Positions 37,426-50,822 of a stretch of 64,000 nt of DNA are shown here, in pieces. A model generated the notes under the pieces. The model had not been told where the DNA came from and ran no database searches. It saw only the letters and a program-made list of their open reading frames with translations. Numbering within the stretch: the first letter of the stretch is position 1; each line of letters starts with the position of its first letter. The translations under genes were made by a program, and so were the position numbers. The DNA is from a virus. The stretch covers positions 5,221-69,220 of IMG/VR virus record IMGVR_UViG_3300042542_003631. One strand, 5' to 3'.

Positions 37426-38016
37426 TCAGAGGTTGCGTTCCTTCGTCACCCAGCACCACTCAGGGTAGTAGGCGGTGTCCTCCTTGTAGGACTCCAGGGG
37501 CAGCTGAACCTTGAGGTTCAGGCGGCACCCGCACTGCGCACAGTTGTGGAGGCGATCGGCCGCGTCCGGGCGGCGCCCGGCCGGGAGCACGCCATCCATG
37601 GCGATGATCTCCCCGAGCCGCTCATCGCAGGAGGCGCATCCCCCGGCCCTGACATTGCGCGGGCAGGTGGCGCACGCCTCGGCGCGGGAGTTGACAACCT
37701 CCATCGTGACCAGGTTGGCCCCGCCGAGAATCCAGTTCTTGGCCGTGGTGAAGAAGCGGCCGAGCGTCTCGAAGGTCACGCCCATCACAGGGGTGGAGGT
37801 CGTGCTCTCGCAGTAGGGAGGCTTCAATCCCATCTGCTCGCATACCGCACACTCGATCTGTTCATCCGTCATGGAGTCCCGCCCATTGCTGGACAGGAAT
37901 CCCTTGACGGCGACGATCAGTTTGCGGGAACTAAAATTGGCGATGTAGCTGCCCGTGACCGGGTCGCGCCAGCGCCACTTTCCGTTGGGGGTGGGTGCGT
38001 GGTGGTTGATTTTCAT
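37426..38016 (-). CDS. Cys-rich hypothetical protein
   Basis: CATCP, CASC, CAQCGC, CW. Confidence 0.7.
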   Translation of the reverse strand: MKINHHAPTPNGKWRWRDPVTGSYIANFSSRKLIVAVKGFLSSNGRDSMTDEQIECAVCEQMGLKPPYCESTTSTPVMGVTFETLGRFFTTAKNWILGGANLVTMEVVNSRAEACATCPRNVRAGGCASCDERLGEIIAMDGVLPAGRRPDAADRLHNCAQCGCRLNLKVQLPLESYKEDTAYYPEWCWVTKERNL

Positions 38017-41000
38017 TTCGCTTGCCAGTGGGGGACGATCTCACGGTTGAAGATGCGCGCCTGGATGACCTCCTTCGCATAGTTGCGGGCGGCGGTGCAT
38101 TGCTCATTGAGCATTTCCTGCGCGGCCTTGCGGCCTGCCTGGCCTTCCGCTGCGAGGTCGGTCAGTTCCTTGATGAACTCAGGAGTCATGCGATCACGCA
38201 TCTGCTCGCCGAACATCTTGATGGCGTCAACCTCGACCTCCGGCTCGAAGGAGTTTAGCAGCCCGCCCTCGGTGTCAATCTCGTCAGAGCCGTCCTCGTA
38301 GGTGTCGAAGCTCATCTGGCTGCCCTTGGGAGGAGACAGGAACAGACCGGCGCTGACCAGCGGGGTGATGATCGGGTCCACGGTCGGCCCCGCCGTGGTG
38401 GGCAGGATGCGCTTGGTGGCGGGAGCATACCAGAAGTTGGTCACTGGGGTGCCCATGGTGTTGACCATGTCCTGCTGGCCAAGCTCCGCGCCGTAGATCT
38501 CGTTGGCGGGCAGCATGCTGAGGGCAGCTGCGGCGAACCCACGGGAGTCCTTGAGCGTGTATTCCCCGCCGCCGGCGAGACCACGACCCATGGAGGTCAC
38601 ATCTCGCAGCAGGCGAGGGTTGGTCGCGCCGCCGATGAAGTTGGTCAGCAGCTTGCCCATGTTCCTGGCGGTCATAGCCTCGGCAAGGTCGTTGTCGCTC
38701 AGGAGTTCCCCGGCCTGCGCGAGGCCCTGCAGGGAGTTCTTGACGGTCACGGCCTTGATGAAGGCGATCGAGGCGTCAGCCAGATACTCCAGCTCCTTGA
38801 TCTTCTTGGGGTCCTTGAAGCTGTTGACCATGCGCATGTCCGTGATGGACGCGAGGCCGCCGAGCAGCAGGTTGAACCCCGGGATGTCCTTCCAGGAGAG
38901 ATAGAGGTCGCCGATCTTGACGGTGTAGGGAGACCAGTTCGGCTGACGGTAGCGCAGCTGGCGGTTGCGCTCAGCGTCCGGGTAGCCTTTGCCGTAGACC
39001 ATGAACCAGGGCACGCGGCCCTCGTCCTCGTCGTCCATCCCAGCCCAGTAGGCGGCACCGATGGCAAGCTGCGCGACGGTAGCCACAAGGCCCTGCGACA
39101 TCAGCTTCCCATATTTCAGGGAGCCAAACTCCACCCGCTCACGCTGGTAGCGGCTGTCTTCACCCAGCAGCCAGCGGGAGGGGCTCATGTTATGTGCCCG
39201 CGCAAAGGAGAGGAGCGGGAAGCTCATGGCGAGGGAGAAGTCCAGCAGGTTGCCCATGGCTCGCGGGAACGAGACGATGATGGAGGACAGGCCCTTGGTC
39301 TTGCGCTCGATCGAGCCGAACACGCTGTCAAAGATCATGCCAGCGACGCCGGTCGGGGTGGTGCCCAGGTTGGCAAAGCGGGCCGACTCGCGGCTCGCCT
39401 CCATGAAGTCTTCCTTGTCCTTGGCCTCCATGCGGGAGGTGAGCTCCGCATAGGCCTCCGCACGCCGCTGCTCCAGCAGTTGGTAGCGGCGCGACTCCAT
39501 GGCGAGATCAGGGCGCGGGCTGTTGCGGAACTGGTCACGCTCCGCGTCCAGGATCGCGTTGATCTCGCGGCTCTGCAGCTCGTCCGGGGAGAAGGACTTG
39601 CGCATGACCTCCTTGATCTTCTGGCGGTCGGCACCGCTCTTGGTCAGGGCATACTGCAGCGCCAGACGTTGACGAGCCAGGGAGGCTGGCACGGACACGG
39701 TGGCGTCAACCACGGCGCCGATGCGGCCGAGCAGCTTGTAGAAGGTGGCCGAGCTCATCAGTTGCTTGATGACCGGGATGTCCAGCGTGGGGATGTCCCG
39801 TTCGAGCACCAGCATGTTCTCAGACTGCTCCGAGGCGAAGCGGGTGCGCCCCGTCAGGGCGGCTCGCTTGATCTCCGTCCAGACCTCCTTGCGACCGAGA
39901 GGGTCGGCGATCCACCCCACGGCGCGCATCAGCGTCAGGAGGTTGCTGGCAGCCAGCGCCGGTTCCCCGGCCTTGACCGCGTAGGCGGAGGCGTTGAACC
40001 CGAGATCCATGATGGACTGGATGGTGCCGAAGCCAAAGTTGACCTCGGAGGTGCCAAAGCCGCTGAGCACTCCGGCCTTCCACATGGCGACCGGGACTCC
40101 GGCAAGGTATTCCCAGAGCATGCTGCGATCCTTGACGAGTGCCTTGGCACCGTAGGCATCCAGCAGGCTGCGGTAGGTCTCGTTGGCGATGCGGGCATTG
40201 AGGTCACGGATGGCGTCGTTGCGCTGCACGGAACCGACCGGCATGGCCGAGATGCGCTCAGCCTCGCGGTCAAGCTCTGCGGCGACCGCCGGGTCGTAGG
40301 TCGGCAGGCCGAACTCGGTGGCCATGGCGTTGTAGAACTCATCCTTGCGCAGGCCGCCGATGCGGGCGAGGCGGAGGAACCGCTCGCTCCGGGAGTAGCG
40401 CTCTGCACCCCCGCGACCCTCATACATGGAGCGGCGCTGCGCGTAGTTCGTCAGCGTCTTCTGGATGCGGCGGTTGGCCTCGGCTTCGTAGGCGGTCTTG
40501 AACGCCTCAGCCACCTTGCGTGACTGCTCGGCGTCGAGGCCGGCGGCGTTGGAGATCATCGTGGCGAGGTGTGTGACGCTGGCCCGCTGGTCAGACAGGG
40601 AGAGGTAGACCTGCTCCCGCATGTCGAAGGACCTGCGGACGATGTCCGTGGCCATCTGCATCGGGACAATGTCAAGCTGCATGGCTGCGATCGCTGCCTT
40701 GGCTGCCGCATACTGCTTCAGGGCTTCGGGGGTGGAGCCCTTCTTCGCTTCGAGGTGGGCGAGGAGCTTGGCCTTGCTCTGGTTGAAGGCGCGCTCCACG
40801 CTCGGGGCGTAGTCGAATGAGGCGACCATCTTGCGAATGGCGCTGTCGAGCGCTGCACGGTCGGCGGCTTCCTGCTGCGCGGGGGTAAGGGCTGGGTTCG
40901 GCGGGGCGACTTCAGCCAGCGCTGCGTTGACGCGCATGGCGATGAGGCGCTTCACCTCGTTGGAGTATTCCTCGAAGAAGGTCTGCTCGGGCTCACCGGC

Positions 41001-44000
41001 TGCGCCAGCGACCCGCTTGACCTGCGCCTGAACAGTCCCTTCCACCATGCTGAAGATGCGGTTGGCGACCCAGTCAGCCATCCTGGCCGGGATCGGCACG
41101 CCGGTGCCACGGTCACGGAGGTCCTGCAGGAGCTTGACCGGCATGGTCTCCATGAAGTCGAACATCATCTGGACCTCGGCGGGGCTGCCACCGGCGGCCC
41201 TGGTCATGGCCTCCACGATCTTCTTGGTCAGGGGCGACTTCTTGACAACGCCGGCGGCCACATCGTCAGCCTCCTTCTGGAGGTCGGAGAACACGTCGTC
41301 AAGGTCCTTGGGCAGGCTCTTCTCCGCACTTTTGGTGGCGGCGTCACGGTAGACGGCCGTCGCGACGCGGGGGTTGAGGACCTCGCGGGCGATGTTCGCA
41401 GCGTTGAGCATCGTGCCGGAGGTGGACGCGACGTCCTGCACATCGCGGCCAATCCTCTTGGCCACGTCTTCGTAGTCGGCAAGCATGCGGAGCCCGCCGG
41501 GGGTGGGCGCTTTGACCATGGCTTCCTGCAGGGCGAAGATGCGCCCGTTGACCGCCTGCAGCAGCACCACCTTGGCAAGGAACCGCTGGGGGTCGGTCAG
41601 GGCTAGGCGACCTTTGTCAAGGGCATACGCGAGATTAGAGAACTCCGCTGCGCCTGTGGCTCCTGCGATCGACCGGCCGAGGAGCCTGTCAATGATTTCC
41701 AGGTCAGCCTTGGCGACACCGCTGAAGTAGGTGCTCTCCTGCAGGTAGTCCTGCACACGGGCAGGCATGGCAGGCAGTGAGTTCTTCAGGGCTTCCGTGC
41801 TCTTGCGCTCGCCGGTGACTTTGCCAGGTCGGAACAGCGGCGCCGGGGCGAACCGAATGTCGGGCGACGCGGGCTGGAACCGCTTGGAGGGAGGGATGAC
41901 GTTGCCGGACTCGTCGCGGGTAATGGGGTCGGCCAGCTTGAGCTGAGCCGGATCGAGCAAAGCCACGACTGGCACAGCCGGAGGAGTCTCGACCCGCTTG
42001 GACTCATAGAACCTCACCGCTGAGTAACCTGCTCGCGCAATCGCGTCCCTCAGCTTCCCTTCATCTGCCGCAAAAGCCCGGAATAGCGGCTCTCCGCCAC
42101 CCAACTGAGCCACCGGAACATCTCCCTCAGTAACATCTACCCCGGATTTTTGCAGAGCACTCGCGATGTCTTGGCGGCTCATTCGGAAGATAGACTCTTC
42201 TCCGAGAGCCGTCAGATCGAGAGTGTTGCCTTCTTTGACGAAGAAGTCCGTCACGGCCCCATACGAAGCTGCATAGTTTCGGTTTTCAGTCAGCCAGATA
42301 TAAGGGCGTCGTGCATCAGCAACAGTGAATGAGCCTCCTCCGCGAGAGTAGGACTTGTCGTAGCCAGCGGCCTTCGCGGCCGCGTCAACCATGCGCTGCA
42401 ACTCCTCGCGGTTCTTCTCAGGGTCCTTGGCCAGTTCAAGGTATCGAGTGTCCTGCTCAGAGAGCGGCGACGGGGCGAAGTAGGTGCCAGTGCCGAGCTT
42501 GGACTCGTAGGCCGCGATCTCGTCGGCGGCTGCGTCAAGTTCGTCCTGCTCGTCAAGGAAGGCGTCAACCTCGTCAGCCATGGCGGCTCCTTCCTCCCCA
42601 TACTGGATGACCCGTTCCTGCTGGGACAGCTCCTCCTCGGTGAGGAGCCCGGCACCTTTGAGCACCTTCATGCTCTGGAACACACCCACCCCGCCGAACG
42701 CCTTGCTGGAGGGCTTGACGACCACATGGGGGTAGGAGGCGATGTCAAAGATCCGGGCGAGGCTCTTCTCCATCACGGAGTCGACCTCCAGGTCGGGGAA
42801 CACGATCCGGTAGATGTGGGAGAGCACGCGCTTGATGAAGCTGACAGGCCCCTTGGCCCCGGGGACCTGGGCGCCGACGGAGGCAGGGACTTTGGACAGC
42901 CACTCCACAAAGCGCGGATTGGACATCACGCCGGCGGCGAACTCGTCAAGATCGCTCAGCTGGTAGGCGAACTCTTCCGATCCTTTCTGAGCCTTGACGG
43001 CTTGGCGCAAGGCGCTCAGTTCCCTGATCGCAGCCTCCACCTTCGGCGGCTGGCTGACGCCCTGCTCGTGCCGGAAGATCGCGAGGGTAGTCACCGCATG
43101 GGTGGCCTCGTGGACCAGCGCTTCGACGACCCACGTCTTGGACCACAGGGTGGCCTTCTTGTCGTGGGCAAACTCGTTGGAAATCTCAGGCAGGTTCAGC
43201 GCGATCGTGTGCGTGGCTGCCTCGTAGAATCCAGCCGGGCGAGCCCCGCTGCTGTCGGTCTTGCCGCCGACAAAGAACAGGAGGTTGGACAGCTTCTTGA
43301 TGTCCGGGTTCTTGCTCAGCTCCTTGGCGATGGCCCGGGTGGCTGGGTTGACGCCAGGCAGGTCAGCGATGCGTGCGAGCGCGACGGCCACAGAGCTGCC
43401 GTCACCCTCCGCGAGCCCGAGGGTGTCCTTGACGAAGCCTTCGAGTTCGGTTGACGAGAGCTGCGTGGTCTCCGGCGTTTCCCCGTCAAGCACCTGGCGG
43501 CGCATATCCTCGCGGATACGGGCGACCCGCTGCGCGTCGGCGAGGACTTCGTCAATCGTCTTGCCCTGGAGATTGGCAACCACCTGGGCCGCCTCATGCT
43601 TGGACGGCTTGGGAGCCGGGGCTGCCGGGGCGGGGGCGGCGGCCGGGGTGACAGCCTGGAGGAACTCGTCAATGTTGAGGATCGCCCGGGTGGCGTTCAC
43701 ATCGCCGTAGGCGCGCCACCAGGTTGCGAACTGCCGGGCGGTCGCCTTCAGGAAAGCGGCCGTGCGGGCAAAGGTGCCTGGGGAGGCGGCGATCATGTCG
43801 AGCACGTCCTCCGAGGTGTAGCCGGTCTCGGACACCTGACGCATCATGCGGTAGTAGTCCGCGCCGAGCTGGATCATGTCGGCGGTGACGTCCTGTGAAT
43901 AACCGCTGCGGCCGGTCTGGAAGTAGTCCATGAACCCAGGGTCGCCGGGGTTGAGCCCATAGACTCGCTTGATGATCCGGCGGCGCTGGTCGTCCGAAAG

Positions 44001-47000
44001 GTCGCGGGCGGTGGCCAGCAGCTCGCCGTTGCTGAACCTCTGGAGGATCGCAAGGGTTGACGCCTCCCGGTCAAGCAGGGCGTTGAGGTAGGCGGTGGTC
44101 TCGGCGGTGCTGTAGCCGCGGGCGCGGAGGCGCCCCACGAGCTCAGTCATCGCACCCCGGTTCATATAGATGGTGGTGTCCGTGCGGTCGTTGCGCACAT
44201 AGAGCGGCTGCTCCGGCACGCCTGGACCAGCGTCCACCATGGCGACCTCGCGGCCGGTCTTCGTGCGGGCGGCGCGGAGGAACGGACCGAAGTCGAGTGG
44301 CTCCTTGGCGCCGCTCTCGGTCACGGTCTCGACATAGGGCTCGGCGAATGGGACCTCTTCCTCGGCGGGCTCGGCCACCGGGACCTCTTCCTCGGCGGGC
44401 TCGGCCACCGGGACCTCTTCCTCGGCGGGAGCGGCCGGCTTCGCAGCCTTCAGCGTCCGCTTCCTCTTGCGAACCTTGGGGGTGCGCTTGACGCGGCTCG
44501 TGCCCTGGGGCTCCGTTGCCGGGGCGCTGCCGAGGGCAGCATCGTCCGGCAGCAGCGCAGCATCGAGTCCAGCCACTTCCTCAGGGTCAGCAGCCGGGGA
44601 GTCATCGCCGGTGAGGCGTGCCTCCACCGTGTCGGTAGTGTCGGGGGAGTCGGCCAGTTCCACCGCCTCGTTGGCGGCCTGCTGGTGGTTGACTTCCTCG
44701 GCGCTGGCGGTGCGGCTTTTCGGGAAAGCGATTTCGGGGTTGTGGAGCACCGCCTTGATGGAGTCGAGGAACCGCTTGCCGGGGCAAGGGCTCTTCGTCA
44801 TCAGATCGCCGGCGGTCATCAGCCCGGCGTGCAGGCCGGAGCCAAAGCTCATCGGCTTGCCAGTCAGGAGCTCGCCCAGAGCCAGCCAGAAGCGGCCCCA
44901 TGCGGACTTGAGCTTCGGAGCTTTGACGACACCCGTCTCGTAGGACTGGAGCATGCTCGCGAACTCGGGGGAGGTCAGCATCGCCTGCATGAAGGAAGGG
45001 GTGTCCTTCAGGGCATCAGTGAATCGGGGCTGCAGACCTTCAGGGCGGAGCTTCGCTTCCATGGCAACCGCTTCCAGGCGAAGCTCTTCGAGCTTGGCGA
45101 GGGCGGCTTGCTGGGTGGCGGTCAGCGGGGTGCCCGGGGCGGTGAGGCTGGTCACTGCGTGAGTGACCAAGCCGCGCAGCAGGGCTTCAGGGGCTCGGGG
45201 CGTGCCGTCAAGGGTAGGCGTCATGGCAGCCACGTTGAGCACCAAGTTGCCTTCGACCACGCTGACGTCGGCGGAGAGCGCCGGGTCTTCGATGATCTGC
45301 ACATTGTCGATGCCGTCCAGCAGGGAGGGCTTGCCGTGGAAGACGCGGGCCAGTGACTTGAAGTAGTCGCTGGCGGCGGAGGCTTTGAGGCTCATCCGCT
45401 TCAGCGCATCGTAGAGGCTGACGCGGTCGGCGCCGTCCACCAGGCCGATCGCGGCGAGCTCGCTCCTGAACATGGAGCGTTCCTCCGCCGTGTTGACCGG
45501 CTCGGGGACAATCGCCTTGGTCGGGACCACACCGGCCTTGACCGCCTTGGTCGGCGCGGGAGAAGTCATGTCCCGGCGCTTGGCCACTCCCCTGGCTTCC
45601 GCAGCCTTGAGATCCGCGTCAACCTTGGCTTTGGCGACAGAGAGCACAGCCGCCGGAGGCGGGGCGACCTTGCTGCGGATCGCCGCGTAGGCGCGGGTGA
45701 CGCCCTCAAGGGAGTCGGCGGCGTCGCGCAGGTTGATGTCTGACAGCTGGCGGGACTCGTTCAGGGAGGAGAGCTCCGCGTTGAGCTTGGCGAGCTCCCT
45801 GCGGTTGGCCTCCTGCGTCTTCTTGTCCAGGTTGGGGTCCTTGCTCTGCGCCCTGAGTTCATCAATGCGCCCGCGGACCACACGCTGGCGTGCCTCGATG
45901 CGGTCCATCTCGGCCTTGATGCGGGCGACGAGGGCCTTGCCGCTCTCGACGCTGGTCTGCAGTTCCGCGACCCGCTCCTGAACCCGTCGCTCAGAGGCGG
46001 CGCTAGGGGGAGCGGCACGCCCCACAACTTCCGTGGTCCGGGCGGTCGATTGCAACACGCGGCGGAGCCAGGCCCTGGCCTCCGCATGGGTGAGGTGCGT
46101 GTATCCGGCGTTGGCCGCGATGTTCTTGACGGCCTGGTCGATGATGCGGCCGGCCGTAGAGGTGTCGCCCGTGTGGACCACGGTGAACACCTCCACGAGG
46201 TTCTTCTTGCGGATGTCCTCTTCCGAGAACATCGGCGCCCCGATCGGAGTCTTGGCGCTCCGCATGACCGCACGTCCGAGAGTCGTCATCTCCAGAAAGA
46301 AACGGGCGACATCGGGGACGCTGGCAAGGTGCTTGGCCAGGTCGTTGCTGCCAGGAGGCACCACGCCGTTGAGGACGCCGTCAAGCGCCGTGCGCTCATC
46401 CTGAGACAGGGGAGGGCCGTGCTCGAAGAGCAGGTTGCCATCAGGCCCGACCTTGAACTGGAGCCCCTGCTCAGCGGCTTCCAGAGCCCGGCGGGCCTGC
46501 AGCGGGTTGGCTCGGAGCAGCCCCAGCGAGACCGGGTCGGGGTTGCCATCATTCATCTCCTGCAGGGTGTCCTTGAGCTCGCTGACTTCATCCCCCGTGA
46601 GCGGGGTGACCGAAGCCTCATCCGTGCTGATCTGCTCGGCGAGGGCTTCGGCGTCAATCGAGGCCGCCTCCGCAGCCAGGCCGGCTGTCAGCTGGTCAGC
46701 AGTTGACAGCTCCTCGTCAATGCTGCCGGTAATCAGGGCGCGGTGGGTCCGGGCGGCGTCGTTAAACTTCCTCAGGACGTTTTTGTAGACCAGAGTCACG
46801 AAGTTCGGCAACTTGGGCAGCAGGGTTGCAGGGTCGGCATCCGGGTTGGCCAGGAGCGCCTTGCGAACCTTGACCAGCGCCTCGTTGTTGACCGCGTTCT
46901 CCATGGTCTCGACCAGGTCGCTGTCAGCCAGCCGGGGGAACTGCTCCTCCAGCGTCCTGCGCACGACGGCCTGGACATACGTCATGCCGGAAGCGGGGTC

Positions 47001-50000
47001 AGGCCTGGTGTCCAGGCGGAGGTAGCTCGTCAGGAGGGCTCCTTCCCCGGGGGCTTCGGCGGGGGCGTGCTGGCTCACATAGGCATCCGTGCCGATGAAT
47101 GGGACGCGGGGGTCGCGCTCCTTCTGCAGGGCCATGATCTGCTTGATGAGCTGCCTCTTTTCCTCCTTCATCTCGGCGAGCGCAGTGGGGGCAAGCGGCC
47201 GCTTGCCCGAGACGGCGTCAACGAGGACATTGGTCGCTGCACGCAGGTCATCCAGGAGCTGCTCCATGGTCTTACCCGTCTTCTTGGCGACGTTCTCGCC
47301 TGCCTTCAGCATGGCCTCGACGCGGGCCTGACGCCGTGGGCTGGCTTTGTAAAGCTCATACCACTCGCCTTCCCCGGTGACGGGGGTGTCGCCACGGGAG
47401 TAGTCATAGGCGGCGGTCACCTGGCCGGTGGCCTCGTCAATCTCAATGCCCTTGGCCAGTTTGTCGCGCAGGTCAGCAGGCACGGTGACCTTCAGCCCGG
47501 AGTTGAGCTGCTTGGCCGTCAGCACAGGGTCGTTGGTGAAGAACCCGACACGCTCGCCATTGACGGTCTTGAACGGGACTGCACCGCCAGCATTGTCAAT
47601 CGCCTCCTTGGTGTCAGGCAGCGGCTTCATCCTAGGCCCATACTTCGAGCCGGTGAAGAAGCCTTCAGGCTCGCCACCCTCAGGCGGATGAGCATCAGCC
47701 CAGGCCTTGCGCACGCGGGCTTCCAGAGCTCGCGCCTCGGGGCTGCCATTCGATGGGCCGCGTTTGGTCAACGCCTTGATCGCCGAGTTCAGCTCGGAGC
47801 TTGACGGGATGAAGCCGGTCTCAAGCATGAGCTTGATGACCCGGGACTCAGCTTCCTCCTGCTGAGTGGGGGCGGCAGGTGCCGGGGCAGGCTTGCCCCG
47901 CTTGACGAGTTTGACGGCAGGCGGAGTCGCTCCCGCAGAGAGGCGGGCGGCAAGCTCGGCGGCCTCCCGCGTGACGCGGGCGCGCTGCGCCTTAGCTTCC
48001 GCTTTGGTCAGCTTCCGGCCCGGGGCTGCTTGACCTTGACGAGTCCCTGATGGAGCTCGCGCTGGAGCTTTTTCTTCTGCGACTCGTCCAGCGGGCTGCC
48101 CTTGGACAGGAGATACGCCACTTGCTTGCGGCTCTTTTGCTTGGGTGTCATCGGCTTTGGGGGTGGGGGGTTTCGGGGCTGGGGCTGCGGGGGAGGGTGC
48201 GACGGGCTGGGTGGGGGCAGGGGCAGCCTCTGCAGCTTTGACAGTCGTGATGAATCGGTCAGCGAGGTTGCCGCGGCGTTGCGACCCGGTAAAGGTGGCA
48301 GGGTATTTCCACTCACCATCCTCGAACACCGCATCACCGGTGACGATGATGTCACCCTCACTACGGTAGACGTCAGAGGTCACAACCGAGCCCTTGCCGA
48401 GCACGTTCTTGGGTCCGGGGGCCGGAGTGGCTGCGGCGGCAGGAGCAGCGGGGAATTTAGCAGCCTTCTTCGCTTCGAGATCGGCAATCTGCTTCTGGAG
48501 GTCAGCGTCACCCGCCTCTCCATAAGTGAACTCAGAGGCGAACTGCTTGCGGTATTCAATGTCCTTGGTCAGCTCCTCTTCGGTGGCTGTGTCAAGAGGG
48601 AGAGGGGGCGGAGGGATCGTCGCGGGCTTCTTGACAGCGGCAGGAGCGGCAGTCTCCGAGGGCTCACTTGGAGTGGCAAATGGGTCGGCCGTCGCCTGCT
48701 CGGGTTCGGCCACAGGGACCATGGTGTCAGGGTTGGCGGAGATCGCAGCGCGCAGGCCATCAAGGCGTTGCTGCAGCTCCTCGCGCTGGGGGTCGTCAGC
48801 GGGGAGAGCGTTGAGCTGAGCCTCCACGTCGCGAGCGACCACCGTGGCTTGGGCGTAGGCGGGCTGACCTTGCAGCGCAGCCTCCGCGTCAGCCTGTGCT
48901 TGCGCGGCTTGCTGATCGAGTTCGGCCTGCGAGACCTGCTGGTTGGCCTTCTCGCGCATGGCCGCGGCCGAGGCAGGAAGACCGGCAGCGTCAAGATTGT
49001 CGGCGGCGGCGAGCTGATCCTTGACCGCAGGGTTCTTCTTGAGTTCGCGGCGGGCCAGGTAGGCGTCCATCGTGGCGAATGGCGCGGACATGCCAGCACC
49101 GAGCAGGCCGCCAGCGGCCGCAGCCTTCAGGGTGTCCATCACGATTTCAGAGACCGGCTTGCCCGGGTCGACCGCGATCTTGTCGATGACGCCATTGACG
49201 AACTCGTCAAGACCTTCCTCGGTGGCTTCCGAGAGGGCCTCTTTACCGAGCGACTTGCCGAGGAACACGGCCATGCCTTCCTTGGCGGCTTGCGCGGCTT
49301 TACTGACCTGGGGAGCAGCGAGCTTTTCAGCACCGGTGGCACCGAATCCAGCGGTGATCGCGCTGGTGACGAGGCCGGAAACGATCGCACGAGCACGGGC
49401 GCCATCACGGGCGCGACGACGGGCAGCCTCGACGACTTCGGGGGTGCGCTCCGCATCGGGGATGCGGGAGAGCTCGTCCTTGAGGAACTCGTCAAAGTAT
49501 TGGTTGAACGCTCCGCCAGCGCTCTGCATGCCAGCGGCGAACGACGAGGCGGCGAGACCGCCGGTCTTGGCCAGGGCCAGGCGGCGGGCTTCGATCTTGG
49601 CAGCCGCAGCACCTCCGGCCCTGAGCGCGGCGGCTGTGGCGAAGGTGCCAGCGCCGACACGGCCTGCGGTGGCGGCGGCAGCGGTGCGGCCCGCGAGCGT
49701 GCCCACCCCGCGAAGTCCAGCAACCACACCTCGACCAGCAAGGCCTGCGGGGGCGGTGGCCAGGGAGGTGACCATCATCGAGGCCGCGTCGGAGGCGTAT
49801 GTTGCTCCCCCGGTTGCCTCGCTGGCGGCAGCCAGCTCGCCACTGAGTTTCCCTGTGGCTTCGGCACGGGCGACGGTCTCCTCGTCCTCCACCCCGACGA
49901 GTCGCTTGACGCCGTAGTAAGCACCGAGGGTATCGCTCATGCCCCGCAAGGCTCCGAGCTTGATCTGGGTGCCGAGATTGGAATACCACGCACCGTTCTC

Positions 50001-50780
50001 TTCCTGCCAGCGCTCCATGACATCAGCGTCCGTGGCGTCAGGGTTTGCCTCACGGAGGTCCCGCTCAAACTGGTTGAACTTGTTGGAGCCCCAGACGGAG
50101 TCGCCAAAGGCGTCCTCCATGCTGGTGATCTCGCCACGGAGCTTGGCCCCCACATCCTCGCGGAGCCGGCGGCCCTCCATCATGGCGTCAGCCTTCTGCT
50201 CATCTGTCAGGTTGGTCGCCTTGACAGCGTCGCGGTAGCGAGACTTGGACAGGGCGAGGGAAGGGCTGGCGTAGAACTTGCCGTTGGCGACATGGAACTC
50301 ACGGTCGTCGTTGGCGACTTCCTCGACTGCGTCAAGGTCATCGTCGTCAGAGGCTCCCAGGACGCTCTTCAGCTTCTGGAGTTCGTCACGGTCTTCGGGC
50401 GTCAGGGTGGCAAGGTCAGTCCCGCCGAAAGTTGACCTGGCCTTCGACTCGATCTCGCGCTTGCGGGCCGCGAGCTGCATCCGGTCAGGAGCCGCGGACG
50501 AGGCCTCATTGTCAGCCTCCTCGGTAGCTGCGGCGAAGCCGCTGGCCCCACGCAGCTCGGCCCCCTTCTGCTTGCGGAACTCCTTGAACTTAGCCCACCG
50601 CTCAGGCGAGATGTTGTCAGAGTCGTCAGCCGCGGCCTTGGTGAACTTCTGCTGCCAGATGTCAAAGGTCTCCTTGCGGGTCTTGGGGTCCCAGGTCGAG
50701 TAAGAGGGGGACTGTTCGATGTCAGTCCAGCGTGGGAGTTCAGCGAAAGTCTGGGGCTTGGTTTCGGTCGCAGTGGCCAT
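38013..50780 (-). CDS. Giant polyvalent internal virion/ejection protein (zincin, ART-like and LPD38-like domains)
   Basis: About 4255 aa, very Cys-poor; HEATH at 43098-43112; ART-PolyVal-like block about 41850-42450; C-terminal PYTVKIGD.Y.S motif. Confidence 0.75.
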   Translation of the reverse strand: MATATETKPQTFAELPRWTDIEQSPSYSTWDPKTRKETFDIWQQKFTKAAADDSDNISPERWAKFKEFRKQKGAELRGASGFAAATEEADNEASSAAPDRMQLAARKREIESKARSTFGGTDLATLTPEDRDELQKLKSVLGASDDDDLDAVEEVANDDREFHVANGKFYASPSLALSKSRYRDAVKATNLTDEQKADAMMEGRRLREDVGAKLRGEITSMEDAFGDSVWGSNKFNQFERDLREANPDATDADVMERWQEENGAWYSNLGTQIKLGALRGMSDTLGAYYGVKRLVGVEDEETVARAEATGKLSGELAAASEATGGATYASDAASMMVTSLATAPAGLAGRGVVAGLRGVGTLAGRTAAAATAGRVGAGTFATAAALRAGGAAAAKIEARRLALAKTGGLAASSFAAGMQSAGGAFNQYFDEFLKDELSRIPDAERTPEVVEAARRRARDGARARAIVSGLVTSAITAGFGATGAEKLAAPQVSKAAQAAKEGMAVFLGKSLGKEALSEATEEGLDEFVNGVIDKIAVDPGKPVSEIVMDTLKAAAAGGLLGAGMSAPFATMDAYLARRELKKNPAVKDQLAAADNLDAAGLPASAAAMREKANQQVSQAELDQQAAQAQADAEAALQGQPAYAQATVVARDVEAQLNALPADDPQREELQQRLDGLRAAISANPDTMVPVAEPEQATADPFATPSEPSETAAPAAVKKPATIPPPPLPLDTATEEELTKDIEYRKQFASEFTYGEAGDADLQKQIADLEAKKAAKFPAAPAAAATPAPGPKNVLGKGSVVTSDVYRSEGDIIVTGDAVFEDGEWKYPATFTGSQRRGNLADRFITTVKAAEAAPAPTQPVAPSPAAPAPKPPTPKADDTQAKEPQASGVSPVQGQPAGRVAEEKAPARAPSGTRQGQAAPGRKLTKAEAKAQRARVTREAAELAARLSAGATPPAVKLVKRGKPAPAPAAPTQQEEAESRVIKLMLETGFIPSSSELNSAIKALTKRGPSNGSPEARALEARVRKAWADAHPPEGGEPEGFFTGSKYGPRMKPLPDTKEAIDNAGGAVPFKTVNGERVGFFTNDPVLTAKQLNSGLKVTVPADLRDKLAKGIEIDEATGQVTAAYDYSRGDTPVTGEGEWYELYKASPRRQARVEAMLKAGENVAKKTGKTMEQLLDDLRAATNVLVDAVSGKRPLAPTALAEMKEEKRQLIKQIMALQKERDPRVPFIGTDAYVSQHAPAEAPGEGALLTSYLRLDTRPDPASGMTYVQAVVRRTLEEQFPRLADSDLVETMENAVNNEALVKVRKALLANPDADPATLLPKLPNFVTLVYKNVLRKFNDAARTHRALITGSIDEELSTADQLTAGLAAEAASIDAEALAEQISTDEASVTPLTGDEVSELKDTLQEMNDGNPDPVSLGLLRANPLQARRALEAAEQGLQFKVGPDGNLLFEHGPPLSQDERTALDGVLNGVVPPGSNDLAKHLASVPDVARFFLEMTTLGRAVMRSAKTPIGAPMFSEEDIRKKNLVEVFTVVHTGDTSTAGRIIDQAVKNIAANAGYTHLTHAEARAWLRRVLQSTARTTEVVGRAAPPSAASERRVQERVAELQTSVESGKALVARIKAEMDRIEARQRVVRGRIDELRAQSKDPNLDKKTQEANRRELAKLNAELSSLNESRQLSDINLRDAADSLEGVTRAYAAIRSKVAPPPAAVLSVAKAKVDADLKAAEARGVAKRRDMTSPAPTKAVKAGVVPTKAIVPEPVNTAEERSMFRSELAAIGLVDGADRVSLYDALKRMSLKASAASDYFKSLARVFHGKPSLLDGIDNVQIIEDPALSADVSVVEGNLVLNVAAMTPTLDGTPRAPEALLRGLVTHAVTSLTAPGTPLTATQQAALAKLEELRLEAVAMEAKLRPEGLQPRFTDALKDTPSFMQAMLTSPEFASMLQSYETGVVKAPKLKSAWGRFWLALGELLTGKPMSFGSGLHAGLMTAGDLMTKSPCPGKRFLDSIKAVLHNPEIAFPKSRTASAEEVNHQQAANEAVELADSPDTTDTVEARLTGDDSPAADPEEVAGLDAALLPDDAALGSAPATEPQGTSRVKRTPKVRKRKRTLKAAKPAAPAEEEVPVAEPAEEEVPVAEPAEEEVPFAEPYVETVTESGAKEPLDFGPFLRAARTKTGREVAMVDAGPGVPEQPLYVRNDRTDTTIYMNRGAMTELVGRLRARGYSTAETTAYLNALLDREASTLAILQRFSNGELLATARDLSDDQRRRIIKRVYGLNPGDPGFMDYFQTGRSGYSQDVTADMIQLGADYYRMMRQVSETGYTSEDVLDMIAASPGTFARTAAFLKATARQFATWWRAYGDVNATRAILNIDEFLQAVTPAAAPAPAAPAPKPSKHEAAQVVANLQGKTIDEVLADAQRVARIREDMRRQVLDGETPETTQLSSTELEGFVKDTLGLAEGDGSSVAVALARIADLPGVNPATRAIAKELSKNPDIKKLSNLLFFVGGKTDSSGARPAGFYEAATHTIALNLPEISNEFAHDKKATLWSKTWVVEALVHEATHAVTTLAIFRHEQGVSQPPKVEAAIRELSALRQAVKAQKGSEEFAYQLSDLDEFAAGVMSNPRFVEWLSKVPASVGAQVPGAKGPVSFIKRVLSHIYRIVFPDLEVDSVMEKSLARIFDIASYPHVVVKPSSKAFGGVGVFQSMKVLKGAGLLTEEELSQQERVIQYGEEGAAMADEVDAFLDEQDELDAAADEIAAYESKLGTGTYFAPSPLSEQDTRYLELAKDPEKNREELQRMVDAAAKAAGYDKSYSRGGGSFTVADARRPYIWLTENRNYAASYGAVTDFFVKEGNTLDLTALGEESIFRMSRQDIASALQKSGVDVTEGDVPVAQLGGGEPLFRAFAADEGKLRDAIARAGYSAVRFYESKRVETPPAVPVVALLDPAQLKLADPITRDESGNVIPPSKRFQPASPDIRFAPAPLFRPGKVTGERKSTEALKNSLPAMPARVQDYLQESTYFSGVAKADLEIIDRLLGRSIAGATGAAEFSNLAYALDKGRLALTDPQRFLAKVVLLQAVNGRIFALQEAMVKAPTPGGLRMLADYEDVAKRIGRDVQDVASTSGTMLNAANIAREVLNPRVATAVYRDAATKSAEKSLPKDLDDVFSDLQKEADDVAAGVVKKSPLTKKIVEAMTRAAGGSPAEVQMMFDFMETMPVKLLQDLRDRGTGVPIPARMADWVANRIFSMVEGTVQAQVKRVAGAAGEPEQTFFEEYSNEVKRLIAMRVNAALAEVAPPNPALTPAQQEAADRAALDSAIRKMVASFDYAPSVERAFNQSKAKLLAHLEAKKGSTPEALKQYAAAKAAIAAMQLDIVPMQMATDIVRRSFDMREQVYLSLSDQRASVTHLATMISNAAGLDAEQSRKVAEAFKTAYEAEANRRIQKTLTNYAQRRSMYEGRGGAERYSRSERFLRLARIGGLRKDEFYNAMATEFGLPTYDPAVAAELDREAERISAMPVGSVQRNDAIRDLNARIANETYRSLLDAYGAKALVKDRSMLWEYLAGVPVAMWKAGVLSGFGTSEVNFGFGTIQSIMDLGFNASAYAVKAGEPALAASNLLTLMRAVGWIADPLGRKEVWTEIKRAALTGRTRFASEQSENMLVLERDIPTLDIPVIKQLMSSATFYKLLGRIGAVVDATVSVPASLARQRLALQYALTKSGADRQKIKEVMRKSFSPDELQSREINAILDAERDQFRNSPRPDLAMESRRYQLLEQRRAEAYAELTSRMEAKDKEDFMEASRESARFANLGTTPTGVAGMIFDSVFGSIERKTKGLSSIIVSFPRAMGNLLDFSLAMSFPLLSFARAHNMSPSRWLLGEDSRYQRERVEFGSLKYGKLMSQGLVATVAQLAIGAAYWAGMDDEDEGRVPWFMVYGKGYPDAERNRQLRYRQPNWSPYTVKIGDLYLSWKDIPGFNLLLGGLASITDMRMVNSFKDPKKIKELEYLADASIAFIKAVTVKNSLQGLAQAGELLSDNDLAEAMTARNMGKLLTNFIGGATNPRLLRDVTSMGRGLAGGGEYTLKDSRGFAAAALSMLPANEIYGAELGQQDMVNTMGTPVTNFWYAPATKRILPTTAGPTVDPIITPLVSAGLFLSPPKGSQMSFDTYEDGSDEIDTEGGLLNSFEPEVEVDAIKMFGEQMRDRMTPEFIKELTDLAAEGQAGRKAAQEMLNEQCTAARNYAKEVIQARIFNREIVPHWQAK
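48008..48151 (-). CDS. Nested 47-aa basic protein in an alternative frame of the giant gene
   Basis: MTPKQKSRKQVAYLLSKGSPLDESQKKKLQRELHQGLVKVK; A/C-rich leader before its ATG. Confidence 0.55.
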   Translation of the reverse strand: MTPKQKSRKQVAYLLSKGSPLDESQKKKLQRELHQGLVKVKQPRAGS

Positions 50781-50822
50781 ATTCAACCACCATGCCCAAA
50801 GAAGCCCCGTTCGTCAAGGAAC

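What the first reader, a model, noticed from the sequence alone, without database searches (positions are those of the whole stretch)
48008..48151. Small gene overprinted inside the giant virion gene
Seen: a same-strand alternative frame encodes MTPKQKSRKQVAYLLSKGSPLDESQKKKLQRELHQGLVKVKQPRAGS. It is preceded by an A/C-rich leader (ccccgaaaccccccacccccaaagccgATG) like true starts in this genome. The host frame there is a featureless linker (ADDTQAKEPQASGVSPVQGQ). From memory, the peptide resembles small basic phage proteins with a QVxYLLSKxSPL motif; this is unverified. Inference: a nested gene that standard annotation would miss.
Basis: partly seen in the sequence, partly recalled or inferred. 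Interest (0 to 1): 0.7.

Follow-up and report, generated by a model that had tools for sequence, protein, structure and literature searches.

The report
Conserved small gene inside giant phage gene
A 47-codon gene for a small, strongly basic protein is written in a shifted reading frame inside a 4,257-codon phage gene; relatives show that selection preserves the small frame, and the same protein occurs as an ordinary separate gene in hundreds of uncultured phages.

Summary
The ORF at 48151..48008 (minus strand, frame +1 of the 4257-codon ORF) belongs to an undescribed family of small basic viral proteins. There are 49 free-standing 43-96 aa homologs (best E 6.8e-8), 278 confirmed places in IMG/VR, and no Pfam or PHROG family.

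Five related giant genes keep a 47-codon ATG-to-stop ORF at the same place. Inside the overlap the giant's wobble position is its best-conserved position (42/47 against 0.47 outside; Fisher 2e-6). Across 11 nested copies the small frame is 68% identical and the giant frame 30%.

Sixteen of 90 fetched loci, in at least 7 lineages, nest the gene in the same relative frame. In others it overlaps the 3' end of a large ORF by 1 to 146 nt. A start codon (ATG or GTG) sits at the homologous N-terminus throughout.

Function is unknown. My guess is a late, nucleic-acid- or host-target-binding protein. The architecture resembles lambda Rz/Rz1.

This scan has noted small genes overprinted in linkers of other giant polyvalent genes on other DNA (unchecked notes). 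Those were other families by the sequence look-up.

The parts
48008..48151 (-). Nested small gene: 47 codons plus TGA stop, in frame +1 of the giant ORF. Encodes a basic protein with predicted strand-helix-helix-strand topology.
   Evidence: sequence. (family). (kept open and under small-frame selection in relatives). (AF2 mean pLDDT 84.8).
48149..48151 (-). ATG start codon of the nested gene. It is formed by giant codons GAT|GAC (D879-D880).
   Evidence: ATG is kept in L003-L006 and L095, where the giant frame reads AAT|GAC or similar. The homologous position holds ATG or GTG in all 16 nested loci.
48152..48190 (-). G-poor A/C-rich leader, which also encodes the giant's Pro-rich linker (PAAPAPKPPTPKA). 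Candidate unstructured, Shine-Dalgarno-less initiation region.
   Evidence: similar leaders before 7 of 19 long-ORF starts; rare inside the giant gene. (similar A/C-rich leaders in L003-L006, L037/L074/L090, L045/L051). (unpaired in the centroid fold; z 0.07).
38013..50786 (-). Host gene: 4257-codon ORF (4255 aa from ATG 50780). It is a giant multi-module protein of polyvalent/DarB-like type. Residues about 880-926 are the shadow of the nested gene.
   Evidence: 7 homologs of 4041-4747 aa, three with PF18760 precomputed; P0065, 4255 aa. The window's own protein has no Pfam or PHROG hit.

Best explanation
The 144-nt stretch is a real protein-coding gene nested on the same strand, in frame +1, inside the giant gene.

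Its product is a 47-aa, lysine-rich protein of an undescribed family spread through uncultured phages. The core reads K-S-x-K-Q-V-x-Y-L-L-S-K-G-S-P-L ... L-x-x-E-L-H-x-G-x-V-K-V.

It is most likely translated on its own from ATG 48151 on the giant gene's late mRNA. Ribosomes would load on the G-poor, unstructured leader that the giant frame reads as a proline-rich linker. This genome largely lacks Shine-Dalgarno sites.

Shown: homology, a kept frame, start and stop, and purifying selection on the small frame. Inferred: internal initiation. Also inferred: the giant ORF extended over, or fused across, an older free-standing gene, so the giant's residues 880-926 are a tolerated linker 'shadow'.

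The function is a guess, at about 25%. It would be a late-expressed small basic protein that binds nucleic acid or a conserved host component. The reasoning is that it stays about 68% identical across phages whose neighbouring proteins share nothing detectable.
For: (1) Family. phmmer of the 47-aa peptide against 1.84e9 representatives gave 54 hits at E<=1e-3. Forty-nine are 43-96 aa proteins with 41-68% identity; the best independent hit is P0011 at E 6.8e-8. P0064 (47 aa, 80% identity) is a JGI-called gene. The 51-row alignment has invariant L14, S16, P20 and E32.

(2) Own lineage. L003/L004/L005, L006 and L095 each keep a 47-codon ATG..stop ORF at the same place inside the homologous giant ORF.

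(3) Selection. Giant-frame positional identity inside the overlap is 32/47, 36/47 and 42/47, against 0.69, 0.76 and 0.47 outside (window vs L004). Identical codon given identical residue:
- window vs L004: 26/28 against 544/1082, Fisher 2.3e-6
- window vs L006: 22/26 against 386/992, 3e-6
- window vs L095: 16/20 against 104/280, 2e-4
- L051 vs L052: 43/43 against 940/1205, 2.9e-5
- L074 vs L037: 23/25 against 202/396, 2.5e-5

(4) Eleven nested copies, 33-codon core, 55 pairs. Small-frame residue identity is 0.677 and giant-frame 0.302. Nucleotide identity by small-frame position 1/2/3 is 0.705/0.745/0.432.

(5) Control. Nine other alternative-frame ORFs of the giant gene are not kept in L004 plus L006.

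(6) Starts. ATG or GTG sits at the homologous N-terminus in all 16 nested loci. GGAG-like sites lie 8-15 nt upstream in L007, L069 and L077, partly in L066. A/C-rich leaders occur elsewhere. Free-standing copies are ordinary genes, with ATGA overlaps on both sides in L021.

(7) Population. In contigs of runs X4 and X5 (about 94% identical), 33 listed differences fall in 47500-48007 and 2 in 48008-48151. Both of those are synonymous in the small frame and change the giant protein (P912A, Q882K).

(8) AF2 with the family alignment folds it confidently (mean pLDDT 84.8).
Against: - No evidence of transcription start, translation or peptide.
- No Shine-Dalgarno site and no sigma-70-like promoter near the start.
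- The window's own lineage gives only four independent DNA comparisons: L003-L005 are nearly one sequence, plus L006 and L095.
- Giant-frame positions 1 and 2 are as conserved inside the overlap as outside, so the giant frame may be constrained too.
- One nested copy (L037) is cut to 23 codons, so the gene can be lost.
- Four very divergent pairs gave no excess of identical codons (Fisher 0.94-0.99). I put this down to unreliable alignments guided by 23-27%-identical giant proteins. One search, which uses the small-frame register, covers those copies.
- Many of the 80 IMG/VR loci are near-duplicates of one lineage, so locus counts overstate independent cases.
- Function: no Pfam, PHROG, PDB-sequence or fold match.
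Confidence: 0.8

Rival explanations
1. The small frame is not started independently. It is reached by +1 ribosomal frameshifting, or only by DNA-level frameshift variants, from the giant frame. That would give a truncated product of about 880 aa ending in the 47-aa module.
For: P0010 (914 aa, on a 3306-nt contig) joins giant residues 1-797 to the alternative frame and ends at the small ORF's stop. The module occurs in frame inside larger proteins: twice in P0035 (1027 aa) and once in P0060 (190 aa). The window has no Shine-Dalgarno site.
Against: A start codon sits at the homologous N-terminus in 16 of 16 nested loci, and SD-like sites sit before it in some lineages. The codons just upstream differ between relatives (CCC AAA GCC GAT, CCC ACC ACC AAT, CCC GAA TCC GAT), so no shared slippery site is seen. 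The alternative frame upstream of the ATG carries stops in L003-L006. No indel was seen in runs X2-X5. Most homologs are free-standing genes.
Confidence: 0.07
2. The gene was engulfed and is now a silent fossil in this lineage. The DNA stays conserved for another reason, or has simply not yet decayed.
For: L037 shows that a nested copy can be truncated. There are no expression data.
Against: Start, stop and length (47 codons) are all kept in five relatives whose giant proteins are only 33-60% identical. Their substitutions are concentrated at small-frame wobble positions. Both population differences are silent in the small frame.
Confidence: 0.06
3. The conserved island is an RNA or DNA element (a structure or a binding site) or a conserved peptide of the giant protein, and the small ORF is incidental.
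For: The giant-frame text is conserved in all 8 homologs. Extra contigs in run X5 match only this segment.
Against: The three-base periodicity of conservation fits the small frame (0.705/0.745/0.432), and the giant frame is only 0.30 identical across nested copies. The RNA fold is no better than shuffles (z 0.07). The same protein sequence is an ordinary stand-alone gene elsewhere.
Confidence: 0.04
4. The small gene is a mobile mini-cassette that lands in linkers of large genes, or between late genes, in a frame-neutral way. Its length is a multiple of three. It persists as a selfish passenger rather than as a partner of the giant protein.
For: Its neighbours vary widely: TerL and portal, a TerS-like gene, endolysins, giant ORFs. 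The 400-aa flanks of nested copies share no phmmer similarity between lineages. In L095 the similarity to the window's giant begins at residue 879, exactly at the island. Other contigs in run X5 share only the island.
Against: No repeats, nuclease or recombinase travel with it. A 45-aa protein cannot mobilise itself. Strong protein-level conservation argues for a function that serves the phage.
Confidence: 0.03

Closest known systems
Lambda Rz/Rz1 spanin genes (embedded architecture). PMC5295617 and PMC6139136 seen as search listing and abstract only. The +1-frame detail is from my own knowledge.
   Same: A complete small gene lies wholly inside a larger gene on the same strand in the +1 frame. 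It has its own start and sits in the late region of a tailed phage. In other phages the same pair occurs as overlapped or separate genes, as with the embedded, overlapped and separated spanin series.
   Different: Rz1 is a secreted lipoprotein that binds Rz. This protein has no Cys, no signal peptide and no hydrophobic segment, so it is not a spanin. The host gene here is 4257 codons rather than about 150. No link between the two products is shown.
Overprinted genes of phiX174-type phages (E in D, B in A, K), and overprinting in viruses generally. From my own knowledge; PMC8227390 and PMC7017920 seen as listing only.
   Same: Two proteins are read from one DNA stretch in shifted frames, with suppressed synonymous change in the host frame.
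   Different: In classic overprinting the small frame is the young one. Here the small frame is the widespread, better-conserved one, and the host frame over it looks like the derived linker (inference).
Polyvalent proteins and DarB-like giant packaged proteins of phages (Iyer et al. 2017, PMC5512222). Passages read through 'find'.
   Same: The host gene is a multi-module giant encoded next to tail-like genes. Three homologs carry PF18760. A different nested-host ORF (L069) hits the PHROG family 'DarB-like antirestriction'.
   Different: In that paper's main text 'overlapping' and 'frameshift' occur 0 times, and 'nested' refers only to a hairpin fold. Genes hidden inside polyvalent genes are not described there. 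The window's own giant has no Pfam hit.
Earlier notes of this scan: small genes overprinted on linkers of giant polyvalent genes (e1-5853690, e1-6135034, e1-5895275, e1-6095772) and tnpV nested in ICE polyvalent genes (e1-4364504 and others).
   Same: Same architecture and same kind of host gene. One note also reports that two of its hidden genes occur free-standing elsewhere.
   Different: They lie on other genomes. The look-up by sequence found no stretch like this peptide, so they appear to be other families. They are unchecked AI notes.

Membership tests
Undescribed small basic viral protein family (core KSxKQVxYLLSKGSPL...ELHxGxVKV) | Significant sequence similarity over the whole 40-aa core, with the invariant L, S, P and E columns | tested here: met
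   (49 small homologs, best E 6.8e-8). (invariant L14, S16, P20, E32, all present in the window peptide).
Undescribed small basic viral protein family (core KSxKQVxYLLSKGSPL...ELHxGxVKV) | Size of 40-100 aa, with the start 3-10 codons before the K-S/T-x-K/R-Q motif and a basic C-terminal tail | tested here: met
   47 aa, MTPKQKSRKQV..., tail KVKQPRAGS.
Embedded same-strand phage gene pair (Rz/Rz1-type architecture) | Small ORF wholly inside the larger ORF, on the same strand, in frame +1, with its own start codon | tested here: met
   The same relative frame is found in 16 of 16 nested loci.
Two-component spanin (Rz1-like o-spanin) | Lipoprotein signal with a lipobox Cys, a periplasmic Pro-rich product, and a host gene that is a type II membrane protein | tested here: not met
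   The peptide has no Cys and no hydrophobic leader. The host gene is a 4257-aa soluble-looking giant.
Programmed ribosomal frameshift site | A conserved slippery sequence just upstream of the shifted frame, and no need for a start codon | tested here: not met
   The upstream codons differ between relatives, while ATG or GTG is kept.
Ribbon-helix-helix DNA-binding proteins | N-terminal strand followed by two helices with a G-x-S/T turn, obligate dimer, and a match to Pfam RHH models | tested here: inconclusive
   AF2 gives strand 4-7, helices 8-15 and 23-35, and strand 38-41. None of the 51 members hits an RHH model at E<=0.01. No fold match. The resemblance is my own reading.
Pfam DUF3008 (PF11450) | A match to the family model | tested here: not met
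   The lead came from the Atlas: rank 23, score 0.84, family on 14% of members. No match in the whole 69-kb genome at E<=10, and none among the 51 members.
Polyvalent protein (host gene) | Several effector or enzymatic domains in one polypeptide, encoded with virion genes | tested here: inconclusive
   Homologs P0003, P0006 and P0007 carry PF18760 (precomputed). The window's protein has no Pfam or PHROG hit at the thresholds used. Its neighbours have tail-like hits.

The most novel reading that the evidence does not exclude
Small genes hidden in the linkers of giant injected (polyvalent/DarB-like) phage proteins may form a general, unrecognised layer of phage coding. This family would be its most widespread member so far. 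It would be a dedicated partner made from the same late mRNA as the giant protein, for instance a nucleic-acid-binding escort, packaging aid or inhibitor of the effector. Giant ORFs would have repeatedly swallowed it so that the two are always co-expressed. At least 7 lineages nest it in the same frame, and a graded series of 3'-end overlaps (1, 14, 41 and 146 nt) would be the intermediate steps.
Probability: 0.15. Interest if true: 0.85.

Novelty: new variant of a known kind. Interest (0 to 1): 0.65.

Why it matters
Annotation reports this DNA as a single gene. The exact 47-aa product is absent from the 5.8-billion-protein collection searched; only P0064 was found there.

The case is unusually clean. 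The nested frame has hundreds of free-standing homologs, so its coding status does not rest on conservation statistics alone. It also suggests a direction of overprinting opposite to the textbook one, with a large ORF growing across an existing gene.

It adds a widespread, highly conserved and wholly uncharacterised small phage protein to the list of targets worth expressing. Together with earlier notes of this scan, it also suggests that linkers of giant phage genes should be searched routinely for hidden genes.

Tried and rejected
- Pfam and PHROGs on the peptide, on the 117-aa extended ORF and on all 51 family members gave nothing usable. There was one stray DUF7650 hit, one HupH_C hit and Astrovir_pp_1 at E 0.046.
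- tblastn of the window peptide, P0021 and P0015 against 50,697 GenBank phage records gave only E>=2 noise (H1 lies on the strand opposite an annotated gene) or no match. blastn of 47000-49500 found no match.
- PDB by sequence: best E 1.1. Foldseek on PDB: best E 2.4. VIA-align wide: best Z 3.3. No fold is assigned.
- ESM Atlas: scores 0.75 and 0.86, unnamed clusters only. The DUF3008 lead was tested and not met.
- Complex prediction with two copies of the protein: no verdict (score 0.02). It is not used as evidence.
- The look-up of sequencing runs: no RNA holder listed, so nothing can be said on expression.
- Sigma-70 promoter scan: 0 sites. RNA fold of the leader: z 0.07.
- The first search for related loci with the N-terminal 1400 aa found no relative in IMG/VR.
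- Two ankyrin-repeat proteins (P0038, P0059) among the 54 phmmer hits were judged spurious and left out of the alignment. P0010, P0035 and P0060 were left out for their length.
- A second G-poor leader with ATG inside the giant gene (window 42727) heads only a 19-codon ORF.
- Literature. 'YLLSKGSPL' anywhere: 0 papers. Searches for 'polyvalent protein' with 'overlapping gene', 'nested' or 'alternative reading frame' showed nothing on hidden genes in polyvalent genes among the rows listed. Supplementary files were not opened.
For those, the nested frame is only inferred from the conserved giant-frame island.
Full report
**What is there.** On the minus strand an ATG at 48151 opens a 47-codon frame that ends with TGA at 48010-48008. 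It lies inside a 4257-codon ORF (50786..38013; ATG at 50780) and is shifted by +1, so small-frame position 1 is giant position 2. The window is part of a 69,220-bp IMG/VR virus record rated complete by CheckV. An open alternative frame is not remarkable here. The genome is about 64% G+C, and the giant gene holds 16 same-strand alternative-frame ATG ORFs of 47 codons or more. The question is therefore whether this one is conserved as a protein.

**It belongs to a real protein family.** I ran phmmer with the 47 residues against 1.84 billion representative proteins. It returned 54 proteins at E<=1e-3:
- 49 are 43-96 aa proteins that match over nearly the whole peptide at 41-68% identity (best independent hit P0011, E 6.8e-8).
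- One (P0010, 914 aa) is a frameshifted form of this same virus's giant gene.
- One (P0035, 1027 aa) carries the module twice in frame.
- One (P0060) is 190 aa.
- Two are ankyrin-repeat proteins that I regard as spurious.

A word-indexed search found a 47-aa, 80%-identical protein called as a gene by JGI (P0064). The 51-row alignment has four invariant and eight nearly invariant columns. No member hits a Pfam or PHROG family in any meaningful way. A degenerate-pattern scan of IMG/VR found 317 stretches, of which 278 were confirmed by tblastn; the best 80 were kept. The same kind of scan over 185,579 species genomes confirmed only 5 of 159 stretches, all on MAG contigs. GenBank phages gave nothing. 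The family is therefore common in uncultured viruses and undescribed.

**Relatives of the giant gene keep the small frame.** Seven giant homologs of 4041-4747 aa exist, three of them with PF18760 precomputed. In all eight proteins the 'featureless' text is a conserved island between hypervariable linkers. DNA could be fetched for L003 (metagenome), L004, L005, L006 and later L095. Each holds a 47-codon ATG..stop ORF at the same place in frame +1.

Inside the overlap the giant's wobble position is its best-conserved position. Window against L004 gives 32/47, 36/47 and 42/47 for positions 1, 2 and 3, against 0.69, 0.76 and 0.47 outside. Where the giant residue is identical, the codon is also identical as follows:
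- window vs L004: 26 of 28 inside, 544 of 1082 outside (Fisher 2.3e-6)
- window vs L006: 22/26 inside, 386/992 outside (3e-6)
- window vs L095: 16/20 inside, 104/280 outside (2e-4)

As a control, I checked the 10 alternative-frame ATG ORFs in giant residues 1-2300. The nine others all fail to keep an aligned start and a stop-free frame in both L004 and L006. The ORF that contains the candidate is kept only over its last 47 codons.

**The nesting recurs in unrelated giants.**

| Arrangement | Loci, of 90 |
|---|---|
| Fully nested in a same-strand ORF of 300 aa or more | 16 (15 of L003-L091, plus L095) |
| Starts at or over the 3' end of an upstream ORF of 300 aa or more | 46 |
| Other (several cut by contig ends) | 28 |

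Many nested host ORFs are cut by the locus end. In every nested case the large frame lies one base upstream of the small one. Among the 46, the large ORF's stop lies 1 nt into the small gene (an ATGA overlap), or 14, 41 or 146 nt in, or 2-14 nt before its start. Many of these loci are near-duplicates of one 46%-G+C lineage, so the counts are not counts of independent events.

The nested hosts range from 36% to 64% G+C. Their 400-aa flanks share no phmmer similarity at E<=1e-3 among ten representatives, except window with L006. BLAST links only L037, L074 and L090, and L045, L051 and L052. I therefore count at least seven lineages.

I took 11 nested copies in the small-frame register over a 33-codon core (55 pairs). 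The small frame is 0.677 identical and the large frame 0.302. Nucleotide identity by small-frame position is 0.705, 0.745 and 0.432, the signature of a protein under purifying selection. Within-lineage tests agree: L051 vs L052 gives 43/43 against 940/1205, and L074 vs L037 gives 23/25 against 202/396. Four very divergent pairs, aligned through their 23-27%-identical large proteins, showed no excess (p 0.94-0.99). I regard those alignments as unreliable.

**Expression signals.** Every nested copy has ATG or GTG exactly where free-standing homologs begin. GGAG-like sites lie 8-15 nt upstream in L007, L069 and L077, partly in L066. The window's lineage, L037/L074/L090 and L045/L051 have A/C-rich leaders instead. 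In the window itself most long ORFs lack Shine-Dalgarno sites. Seven of 19 have 3 G or fewer in the 25 nt upstream, as the small ORF does. Such G-poor 25-mers make up 0.95% of the giant gene's coding strand and precede only 2 of its 180 ATG triplets. The leader is unpaired in the centroid RNA fold. No sigma-70-like promoter was found. Free-standing copies look like ordinary coupled genes. In L021 the small gene shares ATGA overlaps with a 1282-aa ORF upstream and a TerS-like gene downstream.

**Population data.** Contigs of two runs (X4, X5) carry a variant about 94% identical to the window. Of the differences listed, 33 fall in 47500-48007 and 2 in the 144-nt gene. Five of record 17's 40 differences are among the rows not shown. 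Both differences inside the gene are silent in the small frame and change the giant protein (P912A, Q882K). In run X5, further contigs match only the small-gene segment and diverge on both sides.

**What it does.** This is not known. AF2 with the family alignment predicts strand 4-7, helix 8-15, helix 23-35 and strand 38-41, with mean pLDDT 84.8. No solved structure matches by sequence or fold. Neighbours of free-standing copies are late genes: TerL and portal (L043), portal (L087), a TerS-like gene (L021), endolysins (L009, L071, L082) and a scaffold-like gene (L020). The protein is lysine-rich. It stays about 68% identical across phages that share nothing else detectable and whose MAG associations span several phyla. 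From this I infer, with low confidence, that it binds nucleic acid or a conserved host component rather than a fast-evolving phage partner.

**Direction of evolution (inference).** The small frame is the widespread and better-conserved one, and the large-frame text over it differs between lineages. Overlaps of graded length also exist. The simplest history is that large ORFs extended, or two ORFs fused, across an existing small gene. In L095 the similarity to the window's giant begins at residue 879, exactly at the island. The gene therefore sits at a module junction.

**Comparison and novelty.** The architecture is that of lambda Rz/Rz1 (own knowledge; listings), but the product is not a spanin. 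The polyvalent-protein paper does not mention hidden or overlapping genes in its main text, and my searches found no description. This scan has noted the same kind of thing in other giant polyvalent genes on other DNA. Those are unchecked notes, and the look-up by sequence found nothing like this peptide. I file it as a new variant of a known kind.

**Limits.** There are no expression data. Supplementary files were not consulted.

Noticed in passing
window about 48395 (giant codon 797) to 48008; protein P0010: A 3306-nt JGI contig encodes a 914-aa product. It joins giant residues 1-797 to the alternative frame and ends at the small gene's stop. This is a one-base indel variant or an assembly error of the same virus. 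No indel was seen in runs X2-X5.
   Followed up: partly
window, starts of long ORFs (e.g. 51842, 53865, 24741, 25865, 29763): Most genes lack a Shine-Dalgarno site and are preceded by A/C-rich, G-poor leaders. This suggests a host that initiates without SD pairing.
   Followed up: partly
L037:4001-4069: One nested copy is cut to 23 codons by a stop, while the DNA stays close to L074. It may be a decayed copy or a sequencing error.
   Followed up: no
protein P0035 (1027 aa) and P0060 (190 aa): The 40-aa module also occurs in frame inside larger proteins: twice in P0035 between Gly-rich linkers, and once near the N-terminus of P0060. It can therefore act as a domain.
   Followed up: no
L069:3289-5517: The large ORF hosting a nested copy in a 37%-G+C phage hits the PHROG family 'DarB-like antirestriction' (E 1.4e-11). 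The matched stretch (residues 204-416) spans the nested gene at residue 238.
   Followed up: no
window 41850-42056 (giant residues 2911-2979): The host ORFs of L045 and L052, otherwise unrelated, share a 72-aa stretch (42% identity) with this part of the giant. The pattern is consistent with module shuffling among giant genes.
   Followed up: partly
window 48018-48159, run X5: Contig depth rises from 19 to about 120 over the small gene only, because further contigs (6237 nt and 1174 nt) match just this segment. Several co-occurring phages share the island at the nucleotide level.
   Followed up: partly
L095:3-5315 against window giant: In a 49%-G+C relative, homology to the window's giant starts at residue 879, at the nested gene. 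The roughly 1000 residues before it are unrelated, so the island marks a module junction.
   Followed up: partly
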